A program made the position numbers and the translations under genes. The notes under the pieces were generated by a model. It was given only the letters and a program-made list of their open reading frames with translations, did not search any database and was not told where the DNA came from. Source: Mustelus asterias (Eukaryota). Taken from it: a DNA stretch of 52,044 nt. Below are positions 19,540-52,044 of this stretch, one piece after another (the stretch's first letter is position 1; each line of letters begins with the position of its first letter). Location: positions 11,957-64,000 of the forward strand of contig NW_027591489.1 in the NCBI RefSeq assembly GCF_964213995.1. The letters run 5' to 3'.

Positions 19540-19860
19540 TAGTTCCTTGTGAATTCGCTGGTGTCTCAAAAGAGTGGATGAGGTAACATATCCCTTCCCA
19601 CACCGGGAGCAAGTGAATGGCCTCTCCCCTTTGTGAATTCGCTGGTGTATTGCTAGGCTGGATGAGTCAATGAATCTCTTGCCACACACACAGTAGGTAA
19701 AAGGCCTCTCTCCAGTGTGAACTCGCTGGTGTACAACTAGTTTGGATGACGATTAAATCCCTTTCCACTCTGGGAGCAGGTGAATGGCCTCTCCTCTTTG
19801 TGAGTTCGCCAGTGTATTGCTGGGTTGGATGAGTCAGCGAATCTCTTCTCACACTGGGTG
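19540..19860 (-). pseudogene. Out-of-frame degenerate zinc fingers downstream of the ZNF stop
   Basis: [21 protein letters not shown]..., [21 protein letters not shown] and [21 protein letters not shown] lie in shifted frames. Confidence 0.8.
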
Positions 19861-20928
19861 CAGGTGGGATGAACAAGTGAATCCCTTCCCACAATGAGAG
19901 CAGGTGAATGGCCTCTCCCCAGTGTGAACTCGCTGGTGTGTCTGCAGGTTGGATACCCAAGTGAATCCCTTCCCACACTGAGAGCAGGTGAACGGTCTCT
20001 CCCCAGTGTGAACTCGCTGGTGTGCCCGCAGGTTGGATACCCAAGTGAATCCCTTCCCACACTGAGAGCAGGTGAACGGTCTCTCCCCAGTGTGAACTCG
20101 CTGGTGTACCCGCAGGTTGGATGAACAAGTGAATCCCTTCCCACACTGAGAGCAGGTGAACGGTCTCTCCCCAGTGTGAACTCGCTGGTGTACCCGCAGG
20201 TTGGATGAACAAGTGAATCCCTTCCCACACTGAGAACAGGTGAATGGTCTCTCCCCCGTGTGAACTCGCTGGTGCCTCCGCAGGTGGGATGAACAAATGA
20301 ATCCCTTCCCACACTGAGAACAGGTGAATGGCCTCTCCCCAGTGTGAATTCGCTGGTGTGTCTGCAGGCTGGATGACTGAATGAATCCCTCCCCACACTG
20401 AGAGCAGGTGAATGGCCTCTCCCCAGTGTGAACTCGTTGATGCATCCGCAGGTGGGATGAACAAGTGAATCCCTTCCCACATTGAGAGCAGCTGAATGGT
20501 CTCTCCCCAGTGTGAACTCGCTGGTGTGACTGCAGGTAGGATGATTGAGTGAATCCCTTCCCACACTGAGAGCAGGTGAATGGTCTCTCCCCAGTGTGAA
20601 CTCGCTGATGTCTCTGCAGGCTGGATGACAGAGTGAATCCCTCCCCGCACTGAGAGCAGGTGAACGGTCTCTCCCCAGTGTGAACTCGCTGGTGTGTCTG
20701 CAGGTTGGATGATCGAGTGAATCCCTTCCCACACTGAGAGCAGGTGAATGGTCTCTCCCCAGTGTGAACTCGCTGATGTCTCTGCAGGGTGGATGACTCA
20801 GTGAATCCCTTCCCACACTGAGAGCAGGTGAATGGCCTCTCCCCAGTGTGGCTGCGCCGATGAGCTTCCAGCAGAGATGGGGCTCTGTATCCCTTCCCAC
20901 AGTCCCCACATTTCCATGGTTTCTCCAT
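19849..20928 (-). CDS. C2H2 (Kruppel-type) zinc-finger protein, 12 complete fingers plus a truncated 13th
   Basis: ATG at [10 protein letters not shown]; repeated [27 protein letters not shown] units. Upstream acceptor tttcacAG at 21280-21281. No KRAB domain seen. Confidence 0.88.
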
Positions 20929-22589
20929 GGTGCAGGTGTCCTTGCCTCTCTCTTGGGTGGACAATCAGTTGAAGCCTCGTCCACACACAGAACACGAGTA
21001 CAGTCTCTCCCCGCTGTGAATGGTGTGATATTTATTCAGGCTGTGTAACTGGTTAAAGCTCTTTAGTCCATGCACTGGAACACTCTCACTTGAGTGTGGC
21101 AGCGTGTTGGTGCTTTTCCAGTCACACTGATGTTTGGAATCTTTTCAAATCAACAGACTGGACAATAATTTCTCCTTCTAGATTCAAAGGCCGATGATAT
21201 TCAGCTCCCAAGGAATATGACTCTGTCAGATCTAGACGTGACGTTTGAGATTTCGGCCTGTGATTCCTCTTTCAGTATCCTGTGAAACAAGTTTACAAAA
21301 GTCATCAGTGTCAGTACAGGATGGAAATTCAGAACAGACAATTCTAGTTTCTATGGAACATTCTTTCCTATTTCAGTCCCAAAACATTGTGAATCTCCAT
21401 CCCACACACTCTCCCTCCATTCTCACTCTGCTGTATCTAATATTCACCCTCCCAATTCTCCTGAAGGTGCTGATTGAGGCTGATTGACAGATCCATGCTC
21501 ACTGCTTCCTGTCCTGGACACAGAGACCATAACAAATAGGAGCTGCAGTCGGCCATTTGGTCCATCGAGCCTTTTAAACTATTCAATGAGATAATTCGTT
21601 CATCTACCTCGGCATCATTCTCCCCACACTAAACCCATATCCCTTGATCTCTTCAATATCTAGAAACCAATCAATCTCTCTCTTGAAAATAGTTGATGAC
21701 TGAGGCTTCACTGTCCTCAGGGGTTGAGAATTCCAAATCTTTACCACATCCTTGGGTGAAGAAATCCCCCCACGTATTAGCTTCTGCTCCATCTTCTTGT
21801 CTGTTCCCCATAACCCTTGTCAGTCAAAGATCTGTCTAACTGGGATATATTCAATGATCCTCAGCCTCCACTGGTCCCTGTGGAAGAGAAATCCAAAAGA
21901 CTAACAACCCTCTGAGGGAAGAGACGTCTGGAAATATATAACGTAGCTACAGTTCCATATTACAAGATATTCAGATCCCAAGGAATATGACTCTTTCTAG
22001 ATGTGGCGGTTGAGATTTTTGCCTGTGATTCCTCGTTCAAAATCCTGTGAAATGAGTTTGCAAAAGTCATCACAGTCAGTATAGGATAGAAATTCAGAGC
22101 AGACAATTCTAGTTTCTCTGGAACATTCTTTCCTATTTCATTCCCAAAAAGTTGTAAATCTCCATCCATATCTATGGATTCTATTTACAAATGAAAGTGG
22201 ATGAGCACTTGAAGGAAATAAACTTGCAGGAGAATGGGGATATCGAGTGGGAATGGGACTGGAATGTTATACAGAGAGTCAGCCTGGACTCGAGTTACCA
22301 AATGGATTCCTTCTGTGCTGTAATGACTTTATGACTGGAAGTGTATAACATCGCTGCAGCATTATATTACAATGCATGAAATAATAATAAATGTATTTTA
22401 TTACAGAAGCATAAAGAATGTATCTAATCTGAGTACCATATAATAACACTAGACATATCTCTGTCCTATATTAATTTACTGTACGCCTGAATGTCAGCCA
22501 TCTCCTGGGGAAAGCTGCCCTTTAATGTGAACATGAGGAAAAAGACCATCCTTTTCGACAGACAAATAAATGTGTCAAGCTGAGGGAGC

Positions 22590-38465: not shown

Positions 38466-38774
38466 GTCCTTCCCACTGCCCGGATTCCACAGTGACAATA
38501 CAACCACCACCAATAGAACAGGTCTTACTCGAGGCGACTGTGACCTTAACCTGTATCATTTTCAATTCTCCTTCCGGAGTCAACGTGTCCTGGATCCGAG
38601 ACAGGAATTATTTGAAATCAGAGATTGCAGAAAAGCATGAAGAGGATCCTGACAGCATGGTCAGCAACTTAAACATCTCGACACAAGCCTGGCTGAGTGG
38701 GGCTGTGTTTGACTGCGTGGTGAGCCATCAGGATCTGCCGACTCCTTTAAGAAAATCCATCCACAAGGAAAGAG
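38466..38774 (+). CDS. IGHM: IgM heavy chain CH3 exon
   Basis: ttcacAG acceptor and G|GTGAGC donor; 309 nt. Translates [19 protein letters not shown]...NVSW...[27 protein letters not shown], shark Cmu3. Confidence 0.96.
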
Positions 38775-39250
38775 GTGAGCTGAGAGATTGAAGCAATAAA
38801 TGCGTCACTGTGTCCATTTCCAGTGTAAGTGTAATGTTCAATACTTAGTATTCAGTGCATTACCACTCCTCTGAGTGGTAACTCTGCTAACTAAACGCTC
38901 TGGGCCTGTAGATATTTTTGCGTGGGACGTTGATGAATGAAAAGTGATCTGAAGAGAATGGTATTGGTTTATGATCGAATAAGTAGGGAGTAGTCTGGTG
39001 TGGTACACAAAACCCAACGCAGAACAGTTGGGCCGAATAGCCTGTTTCTGCGTTGTAATCTTTCTGAAACTTTCCAGTCTAGCCCCGAGTTATTTGAGAA
39101 AGCGATTGTGTTCCCCTCTCCTCGAAGCTGGAAGTCAAAAATGGAAACATTTAAATTCGAAAGCAAAGCATAATTTTCTGATATCGAACCAGTGGTTTCA
39201 TTGTTTGCAGAGTTCTCCAGTTTATTGACATTTATTGCAATTTTCTGCAG

Positions 39251-39639
39251 ATCCAAATCCGCGGGAACCGTCCGTCTCTGTCCTCCTGCCCTCGGCAGAA
39301 CAAATATCCGCTCAGAAATTCGTCTCCCTCAGCTGCTTAGTGAGAGATTTCTCCCCGCGAGAGGTCTTCGTCAAGTGGACCGTCAATGACAAGCCCGTGA
39401 ATCCCGGGAACTACAGGAACACTGAGGTGGTGGCGGAGAACGGGAATGGCTCCTTCTTCATGTACAGCCTGTTATCCATTGCAGCGAAGGAGTGGGCCAG
39501 CGGCACTTCTTACTCCTGCGTGGTGGGACATGAAGCACTCCCCTTGAAGATCATCAACAAAACAGTTGACAAATCCAGCGGTAAACCCAGTTTTGTGAAC
39601 ATTTCTCCTGTACTGGTGGACCCCGTTAGTTCATGTTAA
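39251..39639 (+). CDS. IGHM: IgM heavy chain CH4 exon plus secretory tailpiece
   Basis: ttctgcAG acceptor. Translates [39 protein letters not shown]...[42 protein letters not shown]. Internal donor G|GTAAAC after 39580 gives the membrane form; AATAAA at 39679-39684. Confidence 0.97.
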
Positions 39640-40092: not shown

Positions 40093-42245
40093 AAGCCATA
40101 AAAAATAAACCTCAATCTTGGAGACCCAGCGCTCCAAATTGAGATAGAGTGCAGAATTAAGGTGGATTGGCGCTAATTAATTCAGTGATTACCCTGAGTA
40201 AGTTCAGCAAATTTCATCCAGTTACTGGTTGATGCGAAAACGTTCTAATTCCGAGCAACAAATGATTCACTTTTAAATATAGACGACTCGTCAATCCCAT
40301 CAAAGTTTTGATCATTTCTTCGTTGCAGAATCGCACCCAGTGGGGACTGGAGTCAGAGCGACACAAGAATAACAACGGAAACTCTCATCCCCAGTCGCAG
40401 ATAGGGCACTAGGCTGTTCAATCAATCCTCCATCAACTCGCCTGATAGAGAGGCGAGAAAATTGATTTTTTAACTCACTGTCCCCACTCACCTACCCGAC
40501 AGAGGGGGAAAAGAGCAATTGTTTACCCATTAAACTCACTGTGCCAACAGAGAGAGGGGAAAGGGCGATGGTTAACCCATTATACTCCGCCTCGCCAAGG
40601 AGACAGAGTGGAAAGGCACCGCTCCCTATTTCTGTGGACTCAGTTTATATTGGTTCAAAGTTTCTAATGGTATGATGTATTAAATACTAACAGCCCAAAA
40701 CTTCACTGGTGTTTGAATTCTTCTGGCTTTTTCCCGTTCTATCCCTGATGTTCTGAGGACTGCTGATTGAAATGCTTCTTTCATTCAGCTTGTTGTCACA
40801 TTGCAGCTCACATTACACCACATGAATTCCCAGAAAGAGGCGAATATTCCATTAATATCGTCTGACAGGGACAGTTCCGGTTCGGTTTATTTAGTAAAAC
40901 TTGGAGCAATAATAATGATGTTCACGTACTGTCAGACACACAGAAACAGAGATAAACACGCACATATACATCTCCACAAACACAGCACAAACCAGAAGAA
41001 AATACAAACATAAACATTAACAACCCATGCCCCCTCGCAAATTAAAACTAAAGCATTCCAATTAAGACTATCATAAACATTGACACGGGTGACCACTCAT
41101 ACACATGCATTAACAAACTCTAACATCCTTCCATAAACACAGGTCAACGGATTCTCTGACCCATCACATAAACACACCAATAAATATTCACTCCCTCACA
41201 GTGAAAAGGGGTACACACAGAAGCAGGCACATTAACACACACATTAATTCATAGAGATGGATAAACACTAAAATACACACATGGTCAATATATCCACATG
41301 ATAGACTTAATTTCCAAATAAAACATACTTTAATTTAGATATCTATATGGCAGAACAGAAATTGAATATCGCTGAAAAAAGAAAGATGTTTAAGCTTTTC
41401 ATCTTGCATTCCCCAGGCTCTTCACAGGAATAATAACTATCACGGGAACAGCAATTTATAATTCTTAGGGAGAGAGTGGCGAATGCAATGCATCTAACTG
41501 TGCGAGAAGCTGCATGCATTAAAGCACAGCACCCTATTCTTTGCAGAGATAAATAACACATACAGACATTGTGTTTGTATCATCTGAACAAAATAGGAGA
41601 CAGCCAAGATCTGATTCCTTTCTCAGGGCAATAACTTGACCAATTACTGTGAATGTGTCTGCTCTGAACTTAAACAAAGCTTGGCAGTTCACTCTCAGTC
41701 AACGTTTAACTGTTACATTCATCATGGAATGTCTCCACTAATCACAGTCCACTTGTCAACCAACATGTACTGTTTTCTCGTGAAGTATCAATTATTGCTC
41801 CATTTGCGTTTGATGTTTGTGCCATTGTCCTCTGACTACAAGACAAAAAACTTCAACATATCTCTTTCAAATATATTTATATCGACACCACGGTAACGTA
41901 ACACATTCTCACACACAGGGGCACACAAACAAAGATTAAAACAGATCAGTACATCCCCATGTGCACATATACAGAGGCTAAAGCACAAACAAAAATGGAA
42001 GGCTTTCAGGAAAATTAAAATTCAGTTGTTTTTACTAAGGGGTCCGTGCTGCTGTATCAAAGCCTAAAACCATGTTCTCCTTTCGAAACTGACGTGAATA
42101 AATTAACTGCCAAATCCAAACAAACAAAGAGTATAATCCTTTCCATCTGTTATCGATCATCATTTACAGTACCTCAATGAATAACTGTCTGAAGTTATCT
42201 CTAAAATCATCCAGGACGATTCGAAGAGCAAAATAAATAGTATCA

Positions 42246-43889: not shown

Positions 43890-44014
43890 ATTCCGCAGAA
43901 TCCACCTGGATTGAAGACCAGGATGATAACAGCAATATCTGGACAACTGCTTCGACATTCATAGTCCTGTTCTTCCTGAGCATGTCCTACAGCGCTGCCG
44001 TCACTCTGGTGAAG
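43890..44014 (+). CDS. IGHM: IgM transmembrane exon TM1
   Basis: ccccgtAG acceptor (phase 1) and AAG|GTGAGA donor. Translates DSAESTWIEDQDDNSNIWTTASTFIVLFFLSMSYSAAVTLVK, with the conserved antigen-receptor TM (CART) motif. Confidence 0.95.
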
Positions 44015-44156: not shown

Positions 44157-44165
44157 GTCGGGTGA
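44157..44165 (+). CDS. IGHM: IgM transmembrane exon TM2 (Val-Gly-stop)
   Basis: Strong acceptor tatttctcttttgcAG after a 142-nt intron, then GTC GGG TGA; AATAAA at 44226-44231. Confidence 0.85.
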   Translation, partial: VG

Positions 44166-44883
44166 TTGAATTTAGGAAATCTTGTGGTTTTCGCCCATCT
44201 GTCCGCTCACAGTGTGGTGCTGTGGAATAAAAATACGTTATCATTGTGATCCTCAAAGTTAATGTGCCTTCAGTGAACAGATTCGAATCCATAACTGAGA
44301 TAGAATATAAGCTGGATTTCGTTTTTGTTTCTGTTTAAAATGAATGAGATAATCGTGTCGACAATATAATTGTATTTTGGAGTTTCACCATTGTTCAAAT
44401 TAATGTGTAAGTTAGTGGTTATTTCTTATTGAGAATTATTCACCGCCTTTTATGTGGAGGCCCTGATTTCTTGATTTGATTTGATTTATTGTTGTCACAA
44501 GTATTAGCATACAGTGCAAAGTGTTGTTTCTTTCTTTAGTTAATTACAGTTATAGACAATTGTCAGTTTAGGCGACAATGTTATGTTCTCACTGTGACGC
44601 TCAGTTTGTGTATTCACCTGGGGTCAACTTTAAACTGTATCTTATTGTAAAATGTTCTCTGTGAAATTTTAAATAAATCTTGAATGACAAATTAAATGAC
44701 TTAGAAGTTGCTACATGCTGAGCTCCACGGCATAACCTTATCACTCGATTTTCCAATCCGAACGCTCCCTCACTCACGACGCCCCTTTCAACCGATAGGG
44801 CTTTGTAATCAATCGTGTTTGGATTTTGATCAACCCGACGACACTTCAGTGAAGGTGCCGCTGCGCTATCCAGTGTCCCAAAA

Positions 44884-45640
44884 AACAAAGAACAAAGAAA
44901 ATTACAGCACAGGAACAGGCCCTTCGGCCATCCAAGCCTGCACCGACCATGCTGCCCGAATGAACTAAAACCCCCTACCCTTCCGGGGACTATATCCCTC
45001 TATTCCCATCCTATTCATGTATTTGATAAGCCCCTAAAAAGTCACGATCGTATCTGCTTCCACTACCTCCCGGTAGCAAGTTCCAGGCACCCACAACCCT
45101 CTGTGTAAAAAACTTGCCTCGTACATCTCCTTTACACTTTGCCCCTCGCGCTTTAAACCGATGCCCGCTACTCATTGACTCTTCCACCCTGGGAGAAAGC
45201 TTCTGACTATCCACTCTGTCCATGCTCCTCATAATCTTGTCGACTTCTACCAGTTCGCTCCTCAACATCCGTCGTTCTAGTGAGATTAAACCAAGTTTTT
45301 CCAACTTGTCCTCATAGCTAATGCCCTTCATATCAGGCAACTTCCTGGTAAATCTTTTCTGCACCCTCTTCAAAGCCCCCATATCCTTCTGGCATCGTGG
45401 CGACCAGAATTGAATACTATATTCCAAGTGCGGCCTAACTAAGGTCCTATAAAGCTGCAATATGACTTGCCAATTTTTAAACTCAATGGCCCGGACAATG
45501 AAGACAATCATGCTTTATGCCTTCTTGACTACATTCTCCACCTGCGTTGCCACTTTCAGTGACCTGTGTACCTGTGCACCCAGATCCCTCTGCCTATCAA
45601 TATTCTTAAGGGTTCTGCCATTTACTGTATAAATCCCATT
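44884..45640 (-). mobile_element. CR1 LINE 3' fragment
   Basis: LVRPHLEYSIQFWSP...FFTQRVVGAWN motif. Confidence 0.92.
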
Positions 45641-45814
45641 TGTGTAAAGACACCTCTACATCTGCCTTTTCATATTAAGTGGCAGAAGCAATTGACGAAA
45701 CAGTCAGCGGGAACACGTTGCTGACTTTATTCAATTATTAATCCGTTACGTTCACATATGGGTTTCCATTACAGAGCAGGACTGTGCTGCTTCATAGCCT
45801 GACACAATGGAGTA

Positions 45815-46114
45815 TAATGAAGCATCTGGTCTTCAGGCTCTGGAAGCAGATGATCACAGAACAGTCGATAGTGAAAGCTACCGTCAGCCAAACTGACCCA
45901 TCCTGTGTTGCAAAGACCAGTATGATGCCCACTGCACTCGTCAGAGTGGTGGACAGAACATTGTTAGAAAAGTAGATGCGGCCGACATGGTTGAGGGTGA
46001 CGGCAATGATGATGATCGGGAAATTGCTCATCGCTATCGGCACCAGGTAGTAGGTGATGCACCGGGAGATTCCGTAACGTCCACGGGATACGATTATAAT
46101 CACCAACATGTTGG
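45815..46114 (-). pseudogene. GPR139/GPR142-like class A GPCR fragment (exon covering ~TM1 end to TM3)
   Basis: ttcacAG acceptor, then NMLVIIIVSRGRYGISRCITYYLVPIAMSN...IYFSNNVLSTT...DGSVWLTVAFTIDCSVIICFQSLKTR. This matches the shark-expanded GPR139-like pattern (ILSRGKCGLS..TxYLV; SVWLTVAFTFDRFVAIC). The DR motif is lost and the reading is truncated. Confidence 0.8.
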
Positions 46115-46309
46115 CTGTGAACGATAAAAACATGGAGAGATATCACCGCGCAAACTCCAAACACCAGCTACTGCCCCATCTAATCTGAATACTTGCTGAC
46201 AATTCCCTTTGCCAGCTCCAGGTTACAAATCTTCCAAAGCTATTGGTGTTTGTTCTATACCCACTGGTGGGTGAAACGTGTCAATATAGTCACCATTCCA
46301 ATCAGTCCC

Positions 46310-46690
46310 CGTCACACACAATGCTCTCTGGTTCCTGAATCAATCCAAGGGGCTCACTGTGCAGCGGAAGATTATCCGAAACATTTGGTCCCACTGCCTT
46401 TATGCAAGCCCATATCAAGCCCCTACTCGCTGATGTGCATTGGCTCCCAGTCTGGCAACGTCTGCGTTTTAATATCCTGATCCTTTGAATTGTCAATCAC
46501 CTTCACTGTCTCACCCCTTCCCTCCCTGTTACTTCCTATAACTACCTGAGATCTCAGCGTATCCACAATCCTGCTCTACTGAGCATCTTTGATATTAATG
46601 TCTAGCGATTATGTCTCGCTATTGAGTATTTCATCTCTGAAATGCTCTCCCTCAAAACCTCTGAATTTTCTTCTTGCTTTTGGATGTTTA
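46310..46690 (+). mobile_element. L2-like LINE 3' remnant
   Basis: HIKPLLADVHWLPVWQRLRFNIL in one frame, typical of the L2 ORF2 C-terminus. Confidence 0.65.
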
Positions 46691-46730
46691 GTACATGGAA
46701 ACATAGAAACTAGAAGCAGGAATAGGACAG

Positions 46731-47033
46731 GGACAATTGCTAAAGATTCAGTGTTTGAAGATCGATCAGAATTCAGGTTTCTGGAAGGACAGAACATAAC
46801 ATTGGACTTTAAATACTCGACTGCTGCTCTTCAAACTCTGTACAGGTACATCCAGTATCCCCGGCAAGCTCTGAGATTTTTGATGAAGACATGTAGCTTG
46901 GCAATACCGATATGACTCCACATTTCCCAGATAGATTGTCGGCTAATTTACACAAAGGGAACAACACTTTTCCTTTAAATGTCACTAGAGCTCTTTTTTC
47001 TGACACCGTCGTGTATTTCTGTGTCATGGAGCC
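46731..47033 (+). pseudogene. T-cell receptor alpha/delta-type variable segment pseudogene
   Basis: cAG|GG phase-1 start. Reads GTIAKDSVFED...EGQNITLDFKYST...LYRYIQYPRQALRFLM (first Cys now Phe, Trp now Arg), then a frameshift near 46895, then DRLSANLHKGNNTFPLNVTRALFSDTVVYFCVMEP followed by heptamer CACAGAG. No leader exon found. Confidence 0.85.
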
Positions 47034-47065
47034 CACAGAGATTTTGCGAAACCCGCACAGAGACC
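47034..47065 (+). promoter_or_regulatory. Defective recombination signal sequence of the V pseudogene
   Basis: Heptamer CACAGAG at 47034-47040 and nonamer-like ACAGAGACC at 47057-47065; spacer is only 16 bp. Confidence 0.65.
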
Positions 47066-47429
47066 CCAGACTGGGAGTTCCAGTTAATGATCAGCAGAGG
47101 GCGCGCTCACACTGATAAACAGAAACAACAATTCAGTCTCAACAACGAGTGTCACCGAATCATAAAAAAATCAAAACAAAACACAACACTCAAGAACAGC
47201 TGAGCCGCAGTTGGTTTTTAACTTGCAACTATATTAAAAATGCATTGATGCTTAGTTAACAACCCACCTTTAGTCTTTGCTGATAGTTCGTTGCATGTGT
47301 GAATTATTCTCCATCTTCACTCTCCATTTCGAGGTCACTTTGATCAATGGGCCTATTTAGTCAGAGTATTTTGCTGGCTAAGAGACAAGTTATCTAAAAT
47401 ATACACTTCACAAGTGTGTCATAGAACCA

Positions 47430-50710: not shown

Positions 50711-52044
50711 AAGTGGTTCCCAAAGGGTGTGCGGCGCGCCACACTGGTGCGGCGAGAGAGGATGGCAAGTGTGGCGGGAAGATTCAAGGACAATCAAAGA
50801 AACATTTGAACATGGATAGATATTTTTCCAAAGTGAGAGCAAGACCATCAAGTGATGCTGAGGACGGTCCGGGTCCATATTGTGATCCAGAATCGCCGTT
50901 CGAACAGGGTGCTGAAGAACAGTCGTTTAATTCTACACCAGTAGCAGGCCCAAGCAAACCTCCAAAAAAGAAAGTTTGTCAACTATGTATGGATAGCTAT
51001 CTGAGTCCCTGTTTCACATGGACTGGAGATGAAAACGTATCTCGGCCTATGTGTTTGATCTGTGGTGAGAAGCTTTCCAATTCCAACATGGTCCCAAGCA
51101 CGATGAAAAGACATCTGTTGTCAAAACATGGAAATCTGGCAAACAAGGATGTTCAATATTTTGAAAGGCTTTTGGAACAGCAGAAATGCCAACGATCATA
51201 TTTCGAAAAACGAATGACAGTCTCAGATAAGATGCAGATTGTATCTTACCAAGTGACTGAATTGATTGCTCAACAGACAAAACCACATAAAATAGCTGAA
51301 ACATTGATTCAGCCTGCCTGCAGCTTGATTGCGAAAACTTTGTTTGGTGATGATGCTGAGCGAGAAGTTATGGAAATTCCTTTGTCTGATAATACAATTC
51401 GCAGAAGAATAGTTGATATGTCAGCTCATATTGAGAAGCGTCTTTCTGAAAGTATGAAGAATTCTAAATTTGCCATTCAAGTTGATGAATCGACTGACAT
51501 TAGTGGAAAAGCACAGTTGCTTGCCTATATCAGATTCATTCACAATGATGAAATAATCACACAGTTTCTATTTTGCAAGGAACTTGGAAAACATACCAGA
51601 GGACAAGATATTTTCCAAACCTTGTCTGAGTATTTGGAAAAAGTTGAGATTTCATGGGATTCTTGCATTGGAATTTGTACGGATGGAGCGCCATGTGTGA
51701 TAGGGAATGTGAGAGGCTTGGTGGCACTCATCAAACAGAAAAATCCAGAAGTAATATCAACTCACTGTTTTTTACACAGAGAGGCATTAATCACCAAGAC
51801 TTTTGTAGCTGATTTGAAGTTGGTTCGAGATCAGACTGTGTGCATTGTGAACTTCATCATGGCAAAACCACTAAAGGCGCGGTTATTTACTCAACTCTGC
51901 AAAAACATGGAATCAAAATATCAGTGCCTAATTCTGCACTCGGAGGTTCGCTGGATGCCCCGCGGAAAAGTTTTAAATCGGGTGTTGGAACTGAAGAACG
52001 AATTAAGAGAATTTTTGGAACAAGAAGGGAACCCATTGGACCAC
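50711..52044 (+). mobile_element. hAT (Buster/Charlie-type) DNA transposon, left end
   Basis: Begins aAGTGGTTCCCAAA, similar to the CAGTGGTTCCCAA-type TIR, 100 bp before the transposase ATG. Confidence 0.85.
50812..52044 (+). CDS. hAT transposase (Buster/Charlie, SCAND3/ZBED5-like), 5' portion, runs off the window
   Basis: Hand translation from ATG 50812 is stop-free for 411 codons. Motifs: basic KPPKKK patch, BED finger CLIC...HLLSKH, PLSDNTIRRRI, catalytic DESTD and CTDGA, HCFLHRE (CxxH), EVRW. Confidence 0.93.
   Translation, partial: MDRYFSKVRARPSSDAEDGPGPYCDPESPFEQGAEEQSFNSTPVAGPSKPPKKKVCQLCMDSYLSPCFTWTGDENVSRPMCLICGEKLSNSNMVPSTMKRHLLSKHGNLANKDVQYFERLLEQQKCQRSYFEKRMTVSDKMQIVSYQVTELIAQQTKPHKIAETLIQPACSLIAKTLFGDDAEREVMEIPLSDNTIRRRIVDMSAHIEKRLSESMKNSKFAIQVDESTDISGKAQLLAYIRFIHNDEIITQFLFCKELGKHTRGQDIFQTLSEYLEKVEISWDSCIGICTDGAPCVIGNVRGLVALIKQKNPEVISTHCFLHREALITKTFVADLKLVRDQTVCIVNFIMAKPLKARLFTQLCKNMESKYQCLILHSEVRWMPRGKVLNRVLELKNELREFLEQEGNPLDH

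What the first reader, a model, noticed from the sequence alone, without database searches (positions are those of the whole stretch)
44157..47065. TCR alpha/delta-type V pseudogene 2.6 kb downstream of IgM TM2, same orientation
Seen: a V exon with TCR-like features (DSV..EGQNITL, LYxYxQYP, D..VYFC..P followed by heptamer) directly after an IgM gene. Known: shark TCR-delta uses IgH V segments, and IgH clusters have been described embedded in the elasmobranch TCR alpha/delta locus. Inference: this block derives from such an Ig/TCR mosaic region, yet here it sits next to a ZNF cluster, which may indicate a translocated orphon.
Basis: partly seen in the sequence, partly recalled or inferred. Interest (0 to 1): 0.7.

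Follow-up and report, generated by a model that had tools for sequence, protein, structure and literature searches.

The report
Dead T-cell V behind shark IgM
This is a broken T-cell-receptor variable gene carried along in several recent copies of a shark antibody (IgM) gene block, an arrangement already published for sharks, although the same genome also appears to hold many copies of the T-cell-receptor delta constant gene, which would be unusual.

Summary
A TCR alpha/delta-type V exon lies 2.6 kb after IgM TM2, on the same strand. All seven near-identical assembly copies follow IgM TM exons and share these lesions, so it died before duplicating. It groups with intact TCR alpha/delta Vs, not with VH or NAR-TCR Vs. 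'Orphon' is not supported: zinc-finger genes sit inside this genome's TCR V arrays, one copy lies 20 kb from a TCR V field, and TCR Vs between IgH clusters are published (PMC12227049). The scan noted IgM/TCR-V interleaving before on other DNA of this genome. Outside the window the follow-up found something less ordinary: 19 open TCR-delta-type constant exons (perhaps about 10 loci after haplotype duplicates), some in 20-60 kb cassettes behind IgM clusters, and 4 of 7 examined carry germline V-D joins. I found no paper on this in 7 searches; one scan note describes a similar minicluster in another genome. The window's unit has no such J or C.

The parts
19852..20964 (-). C2H2 zinc-finger array ORF (neighbour, not part of the IgM-V unit)
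   Evidence: ORF; Pfam zf-H2C2_2 E 6e-111
26501..26938 (-). LINE reverse-transcriptase fragment at the 5' break where VH-D-D-JH were lost (class recalled from the translation)
   Evidence: ORF; homology to complete clusters starts at 26931-26934; matches to both sides of this junction, at the same spacing, in 3 other contigs
26934..35986 (+). Remnant of the IgM JH-Cmu1 intron
   Evidence: colinear with C143, C127 (second copy), C166, C437; no J found in the window
35987..36289 (+). IgM Cmu1
37261..37569 (+). IgM Cmu2
38468..38776 (+). IgM Cmu3
39253..39639 (+). IgM Cmu4 with secretory tail
43890..44014 (+). IgM TM1 exon
44157..44165 (+). IgM TM2 coding part (V-G-stop); AATAAA at 44226-44231
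   Evidence: sequence
44884..45631 (-). High-copy LINE fragment
   Evidence: ORF 45014-45514; very high contig depth and loose ends at 44884 and 45631
45795..46227 (-). Fragment of a rhodopsin-family 7-TM receptor gene (GPR139-like is a recalled label)
   Evidence: 57% identical over 106 aa to a 328-aa ORF behind another IgM TM exon that scores Pfam 7tm_1 E 6e-22; the fragment alone has no Pfam hit
46695..46726 (+). Retroelement-tail-like piece that replaces the V intron and leader
   Evidence: homology to intact V loci starts at 46727; no match of the relatives' leader/intron near the V; high depth and joints to the LINE here
46731..47033 (+). TCR alpha/delta V pseudogene exon: Cys23>Phe (46808-46810), Trp41>Arg (46844-46846), 1-nt deletion near 46898
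47034..47065 (+). Broken RSS: pseudo-heptamer made by a 6-nt deletion, 16-nt spacer, nonamer with 2 changes
47066..47422 (+). 3' flank shared with the intact V family in the TCR V arrays (76-82% over about 720 nt with the exon)
50713..52044 (+). Long ORF, likely DNA-transposon (BED/hAT-like) derived, carried in the duplicated unit
   Evidence: only weak Pfam hits below cut-off (DUF4371, zf-BED)

Best explanation
The V is a dead TCR alpha/delta variable pseudogene that sits 2.6 kb behind an IgM gene and was likely copied along as a passenger when this IgM block duplicated inside the shark IgH/TCR-alpha/delta gene complex. Likely order of events: (1) IgM clusters and TCR V genes were already interleaved (shown elsewhere in this genome, published for other sharks). 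(2) A deletion joined the IgM-TM/7-TM-receptor flank, through a retroelement tail, to the V acceptor and removed the V's promoter and leader (junction shown, mechanism inferred). (3) The V decayed, and all lesions were in place before duplication (shown). (4) The block was copied into about 4-5 loci, seen as 7 assembly copies (copies shown, locus number inferred). (5) The window's copy also lost VH-D-JH (shown). The V cannot be rearranged by RAG (16-nt spacer) or translated, so it has no function.
For: 7 of the 40 scored matches (162 candidates) are 93-100% identical, and all 7 lie 2.7 kb after an IgM TM1 exon on the same strand. 7 of 7 share Cys23>Phe, Trp41>Arg, the frameshift and the 16-nt spacer, and they differ by 0-21.8 substitutions/kb. 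dN/dS against three intact relatives is 0.71, 1.15 and 1.15, versus 0.64-0.66 between intact ones (9-14 synonymous differences only). In a 97-row tree the V falls in starred clades (98/82 and 100/97) of array-type TCR Vs, apart from VH, NAR V and supporting V. Intact relatives have a leader exon and a 22-nt RSS. One of them lies on scaffold C546 with 73 TRAJ and the C-alpha exons, same strand, across one gap. 5 of the 7 copies sit behind complete clusters with a VH. 6 of 12 other IgM TM1 exons fetched (chosen by me, not at random) have a TCR or NAR V 3.2-8.1 kb downstream. Flajnik 2025 (PMC12227049, section 6 and Table S1 read) reports TCR-alpha/delta-type V exons between IgH clusters, and IgM 'missing V' in the white shark.
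Against: The chromosome placement of C1457, and of C553/C127 which it duplicates, is not shown directly; none of the 7 copies is on C71 itself. No public-run contig bridges the repeat-tail/V junction by 31 letters on both sides (best: 29, run X3), and none spans the whole interval. An eighth close IgM copy (C2117, Cmu4 98%) lacks the TM-V part. The tree holds only sequences from this genome (no IgL V and no named nurse-shark references), has 102 columns, and the pseudogene's branch is long.
Confidence: 0.85

Rival explanations
1. The unit is a decapitated relic of an IgM-TCR-delta cassette (IgM, then a few TCR Vs, D, J, C-delta) like those at C71:11.0 Mb, C71:7.1 Mb and C96, from which D-J-C-delta were deleted.
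For: At C71:11.01 Mb an IgM TM1 exon is followed after 3.2 kb by a V of the same clade on the same strand, then two V relics, 2 J and C-delta. Its TM flank is colinear with the window's up to 45716 (67-83%).
Against: That V is only 73% identical to the window's V, while array members are 79-82% identical. No C-delta exon lies on any of the 6 contigs that carry the unit (87 kb-1.4 Mb), and no J was found in the downstream stretches fetched.
Confidence: 0.3
2. Translocated orphon: an IgM/TCR-V block moved into an unrelated ZNF cluster on another chromosome.
For: The window's copy is headless and joined to ZNF-bearing DNA at a LINE; its contig is short and unplaced.
Against: ZNFs lie inside the TCR V arrays and beside the TRAJ arrays. 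C127, which the window duplicates from 29904 on, carries further IgM clusters. The C108 copy is in a TCR V field.
Confidence: 0.08
3. Assembly artefact (chimeric join of IgM and TCR V sequence).
For: The region is repeat-rich, and no short-read contig strictly bridges the V's 5' junction.
Against: The same junction is in 7 copies on 6 contigs that differ by up to 2% and have different flanks; contigs of three samples tile both sides.
Confidence: 0.03
4. A functional V: used in rearrangement, as a leaderless NAR-TCR supporting V, or spliced to IgM.
For: It is leaderless like a supporting V and lies on the same strand as IgM.
Against: Frameshift, loss of Cys23 and Trp41, broken RSS; not in the supporting-V clade; no NAR V-D-J upstream; TM2 ends in a stop followed by AATAAA.
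Confidence: 0.01

Closest known systems
Elasmobranch antigen receptor complex (AgRC) with TCR-alpha/delta-type V exons between IgH miniclusters (Flajnik et al. 2025, PMC12227049; section 6 and Table S1 read)
   Same: IgM clusters, some missing V, interleaved with TCR alpha/delta V genes, pseudogenes and NAR-TCR cassettes over megabases, with TRA J/C on the same scaffold (C71)
   Different: The paper gives no kb-scale duplicated IgM+V unit and lists at most one TCR-alpha and one TCR-delta constant gene per species. This assembly has 19 C-delta-type exons.
TCR alpha/delta V pseudogenes (V relics; general class, recalled)
   Same: Leader lost, frameshift, Cys23/Trp41 lost, broken RSS
   Different: Multiplied as a passenger of an IgM cluster rather than within a V array
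TCR-mu clusters of marsupials and monotremes (PMC7615758, passages read); relevant only to the side finding
   Same: Repeated self-contained two-V cassettes with their own J and C: platypus [V1-Dn-J1-V2-J2-C], opossum with a germline-joined second V; ZNF neighbours at the 5' end of marsupial TRM
   Different: Here the cassettes are NAR-TCR/C-delta, the second V is joined to D only, they sit among IgM clusters, and expression is untested; the window itself holds no such cassette
Germline-joined shark Ig clusters (VD-J, VDJ; PMC6795676 passage read)
   Same: Two sister clusters of the window's unit (C143; C127 at 200 kb) have a VH followed directly by the D1 3' RSS
   Different: The window's own cluster has lost V, D and J altogether

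Membership tests
TCR alpha/delta V family (as a pseudogene member) | Groups with TCR alpha/delta V, not VH, NAR V or supporting V | tested here: met
   starred clades 98/82 and 100/97; IgL V and named references not in the tree
TCR alpha/delta V family (as a pseudogene member) | Intact relatives have a leader exon, V-set domain and 22/23-nt RSS and are linked to TRAJ/C-alpha or C-delta | tested here: met
   (C546:35411 across one scaffold gap); C436 relative on a C-delta contig
Functional TCR V segment | Open frame with Cys23, Trp41, Cys104 | tested here: not met
Functional TCR V segment | Leader exon and RSS with 23+/-1 spacer | tested here: not met
   no leader, 16-nt spacer
NAR-TCR supporting V-delta | NAR V-D-J upstream, extra Cys, supporting-V clade | tested here: not met
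Non-rearranging V-set gene (UrIg type) | V and J in one exon, no RSS | tested here: not met
   relatives end at an RSS with no fused J
Orphon | Lies outside the main receptor locus | tested here: inconclusive
   Against: sister copies lie among IgM clusters and TCR V fields. The window contig's chromosome was not determined.
Elasmobranch AgRC (PMC12227049) | IgH miniclusters linked with TCR alpha/delta on one scaffold | tested here: met
   C71: 26 Cmu4 matches, C-delta x3, 19 TRAJ plus C-alpha TM
Elasmobranch AgRC (PMC12227049) | TCR-type V exons between IgH clusters | tested here: met
Elasmobranch AgRC (PMC12227049) | Linkage to PSMB5, UrIg2, IgW, IgNAR | not tested
   not searched
TCR-delta constant gene (side finding, 19 exons) | Preceded by D with 12/23 RSS and few J, used by NAR-TCR/VH-like V; distinct from the C behind the long TRAJ array | tested here: met
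   49-52% to C of a catshark VH-J-C model and three other sharks, 33% over 58 aa to C-alpha. NCBI's automatic names say 'alpha chain-like'.
TCR-delta constant gene (side finding, 19 exons) | Expressed in rearranged transcripts | not testable with these tools
   no RNA run listed

The most novel reading that the evidence does not exclude
In this shark TCR-delta has partly left the single-translocon plan and multiplied as miniclusters alongside IgM. Germline RAG-type V-to-D-delta joins collapsed the V array into 20-60 kb cassettes (for example leader-NAR V-D-J, supporting V joined to D, 2 J, C-delta), which were then duplicated with IgM clusters to perhaps 10 loci, a shark parallel of mammalian TCR-mu. 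The window's IgM-V unit would be a stripped relic of the same duplication process.
Probability: 0.5. Interest if true: 0.65.

Novelty: already known. Interest (0 to 1): 0.3.

Why it matters
The V itself matters little: it is a dead passenger, and IgM/TCR-V interleaving in sharks is published. It does show that IgM-cluster duplication drags TCR segments along at kilobase range. The side finding would matter more. Shark TCR genes are described as translocons (PMC6795676, passage read), and a 2023 paper calls marsupial TCR-mu the only TCR with germline-joined V (PMC7615758, passage read; a catfish report of germline-rearranged TCR exists, PMC6170632, abstract read). Multiple NAR-TCR/C-delta miniclusters with germline V-D joins would give a living translocon-to-cluster transition and a direct parallel to TCR-mu, and they could be tested with one 5' RACE experiment.

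Tried and rejected
Pfam DUF1968 (C-alpha) search of the genome found nothing. I first read the 19 constant exons as C-alpha (NCBI names) and rejected this when the real TRAJ arrays and a different C turned up on C71:18.37-18.43 Mb and C546 and D segments with 12/23 RSS were found before the 19-copy type. C546 shows no C-delta between its V genes and TRAJ, but a scaffold gap at 129.5 kb makes this no evidence for TRA/TRD separation. PDB searches could not tell alpha from delta. The representative-protein search gave 2484 unnamed V-set hits and no assignment. No RNA holder was listed for the stretch, so there is no verdict on expression. Contig depth on the C-delta exon gives no copy number: run X1 (possibly the assembly's own sample) shows distinct variants, one with 29 differences in 246 nt, but X3 and X4 show only 1-3 contigs per place and X5 does not cover the exon. 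Deiss 2019, Ott 2021, Criscitiello 2006 and 2010 were not held; anything about them is recalled or second-hand, and they may describe more than one C-delta. PMC10787021, PMC5931798 and PMC12698447 (passages) gave nothing on shark C-delta copy number. The PDF supplement of PMC12227049 was not read. Earlier scan notes had nothing near this place or by sequence. RAG action as the cause of the window's RSS deletion was rejected: the deletion lies inside the heptamer, between short repeats, not at the coding border.

Full report
What is in the window. The + strand carries IgM Cmu1 (35987-36289), Cmu2, Cmu3, Cmu4 with secretory tail, TM1 (43890-44014) and TM2 (44157-44165). No VH, D or JH is present. 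Homology with complete clusters on C143, C127, C166 and C437 begins at 26931-26934, beside a LINE fragment, inside the JH-Cmu1 intron, and three other contigs match both sides of that junction at the same spacing. After TM2 come a high-copy LINE fragment (about 44884-45631), a fragment of a 7-TM receptor gene on the minus strand (57% identical over 106 aa to a 328-aa Pfam 7tm_1 ORF that lies behind another IgM TM exon), a short retroelement-tail-like piece, and the V exon at 46731-47033.

The V is real and dead. Aligned with an intact relative (L008), it shows Cys23>Phe, Trp41>Arg, a 1-nt deletion near 46898 and a 6-nt deletion through the heptamer. Intact relatives have a leader exon, an intron and CACACTG-22 nt-consensus nonamer. 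Homology to intact V loci begins at 46727, four bases before the exon, and the relatives' leader and intron have no match near the V. dN/dS against three intact relatives is 0.71-1.15, against 0.64-0.66 between intact ones, on few sites.

What kind of V. A DNA search of the own genome gave 162 candidates, 40 scored: 7 at 93-100% and 33 at 82-86%. The 82-86% matches whose surroundings I fetched (on C1085, C1036, C232 and C420, plus a family member on C546) lie in dense fields of diverse TCR V genes in both orientations. On C546 an intact member lies on the same strand as 73 TRAJ segments and the C-alpha exons, across one scaffold gap. I built a tree of 97 V rows from the fetched stretches, with the pseudogene read through with X; 4 of 101 rows were dropped as identical and matches under 75 aa were left out. 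The window's V falls in starred clades (98/82, 100/97) of this family, apart from VH, NAR V and supporting V. IgL V and named references from other sharks were not in the tree.

It travels with IgM. All 7 close copies (C1457, C127 twice, C108, C143, C166, C437) lie 2.7 kb after an IgM TM1 exon on the same strand, with the same receptor fragment between. All 7 share the four lesions and differ by 0-21.8 substitutions/kb, so the V died first and was copied later. Five copies sit behind clusters with a VH. C553 ends at window position 29903 and C127 begins at 29904, both 99.6-99.8% identical to the window, so the window's contig is likely a second haplotype of that junction and 7 copies mean about 4-5 loci (inference). 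An eighth close IgM copy (C2117) stops matching at 41517 and lacks TM and V. Contigs of three public samples tile both sides of the V junction, but none bridges it by 31 letters on each side.

Not an orphon. ZNF genes lie within the V arrays on C1085 and C232, on C546 between V genes and TRAJ, and upstream of TRAJ on C71. The C108 copy is 20 kb from 8 TCR Vs and about 60 kb from a NAR-TCR cassette, and C108:572-599 kb matches C71:12.745-12.772 Mb. C71 (20.4 Mb) holds 26 of the 105 IgM Cmu4 matches at 63% identity or more (150 listed of 579 candidates), scattered TCR Vs and a TRAJ array of 19 J with the C-alpha TM exon. Of 12 other IgM TM1 exons that I fetched with 9.6 kb or more downstream, chosen partly because Vs were known nearby, 6 have a TCR or NAR V 3.2-8.1 kb downstream and 6 do not. 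Flajnik et al. 2025 (PMC12227049; section 6, passages and Table S1 read) state that some V exons of TCR-alpha/delta type lie between IgH clusters, and list IgM 'missing V' among TCR Vs in the white shark. The finding is therefore a known arrangement.

Side finding outside the window. Looking for the constant genes, I found 19 open exons of one TCR constant type (112 candidates, all scored; 82-100% aa) on 17 contigs, three of them on C71, each with its TM exon. None is on the six contigs that carry the window's unit. They are TCR-delta-type: they follow NAR V-D-J, supporting V, VH-like relics, a D with 12/23 RSS and 2-4 J, they are 49% identical to the C of a catshark VH-J-C model (NCBI description as for the entry Table S1 labels IgWVTCRD; locus identity not checked), and only 33% over 58 aa to the C behind the TRAJ array. 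NCBI's automatic names for near-identical Mustelus asterias models say 'alpha chain-like'. I examined the surroundings of 7 of the 19. Three keep a free D (C71:7.12 and 12.25 Mb, C123). In four (C436, C96, C119, C71:11.02 Mb) a V ends in 6-8 nt of the D followed by the D's own 3' RSS, that is, a germline V-D coding joint. C436, C96 and C119 share one such joint in 20-27 kb cassettes: NAR V-D-J, supporting V(D), 2 J, C (leader and open NAR V frame read in C436). By, 5 of 19 have a same-strand IgM Cmu4 within 105 kb upstream (a lower bound). Six fetched exons differ by 3-32 of 309 nt; haplotype duplicates could halve 19, but three on one scaffold plus a class about 10% divergent give at least 4-5 loci. 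Public contigs show distinct variants in one run but give no copy number. A protein search returned 7 Mustelus models, two Heptranchias models on one contig, and one each for three other sharks (12 hits of 93 candidates). Seven paper searches showed no report of multiplied shark C-delta, but four key shark papers were not held. One earlier scan note (e1-9548874, another genome) describes a D-less NAR-TCR delta minicluster; here the missing D is explained by a germline join.

Link between the two. At C71:11.01 Mb an IgM TM1 is followed after 3.2 kb by a V of the window's clade, then J and C-delta, and its TM flank is colinear with the window's. That V is less similar to the window's V (73%) than array members are (79-82%), and no J or C-delta follows any copy of the window's unit, so a common origin is possible (about 0.3) but not shown.

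Verdict. The finding as given is a dead passenger in a known mosaic complex: already known, interest about 0.2 on its own. I score 0.3 because the follow-up exposed a testable and apparently unreported multiplication of TCR-delta cassettes in the same genome, which deserves its own look.

Noticed in passing
G000 C71:7.14, 11.04, 12.27 Mb and 16 other contigs: 19 open TCR-delta-type constant exons, each with a TM exon; at least 4-5 distinct loci, perhaps about 10; 5 of 19 have a same-strand IgM within 105 kb upstream.
   Followed up: partly
G000 C436:209.9-229.8 kb (L140-L142), C96:1.434-1.459 Mb, C119:550-576.5 kb: Compact NAR-TCR cassettes in which the supporting V is germline-joined to the 3' end of D-delta and faces 2 J and its own C-delta; layout like platypus TCR-mu.
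   Followed up: partly
G000 C71:11023511-11023780 (L085): A second, independent germline V-D-delta join, on a now broken V, 20 kb before a C-delta and 9 kb after an IgM TM exon.
   Followed up: partly
G000 C143:288290 and C127:200439: Sister IgM clusters of the window's unit whose VH is followed directly by the D1 3' RSS (germline V-D1 join); the C108 copy is unjoined V-D-D-J.
   Followed up: partly
G000 C108:581-597 kb and C71:12.754-12.770 Mb: NAR V and supporting V followed after 11 kb, on the same strand, by a lone IgM TM1 exon with no Cmu exons in the stretch fetched.
   Followed up: no
window 45795-46227; G000 C127:432 kb, C306:296 kb, C108:572 kb, C71:12.745 Mb, C1987: A 7-TM receptor gene lies tail-to-tail behind the TM exons of one IgM subfamily; the C127 copy is an open 328-aa ORF.
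   Followed up: partly
G000 C546:137-242 kb and C71:18.37-18.43 Mb: Two TRAJ arrays before C-alpha TM exons with very different J counts (73 and 19 by my scan) and TM exons differing at several residues; alleles, paralogues or collapse not resolved. No C-delta directly upstream of either in the DNA fetched.
   Followed up: no
G000 C108:534239-534476: A second, 5'-half copy of the same dead V, 3.7 kb after the first.
   Followed up: no
G000 C71:7091239 and 7091300 (L074): A supporting V followed by two tandem consensus 23-RSS, 61 nt apart.
   Followed up: no
window 34300-35030: G/A-rich tandem repeat in the JH-Cmu1 intron remnant; an earlier scan note judged a similar one an ordinary minisatellite.
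   Followed up: no
window 50713-52044: Open 444-aa stretch running off the window end, with weak BED-finger/DUF4371 hits, conserved at about 97% in sister copies.
   Followed up: no
P0011 and P0164: Two different C-delta-type gene models on one Heptranchias contig, one with NAR J-supporting V-J-C layout, hinting that C-delta duplication is not confined to this genome.
   Followed up: no
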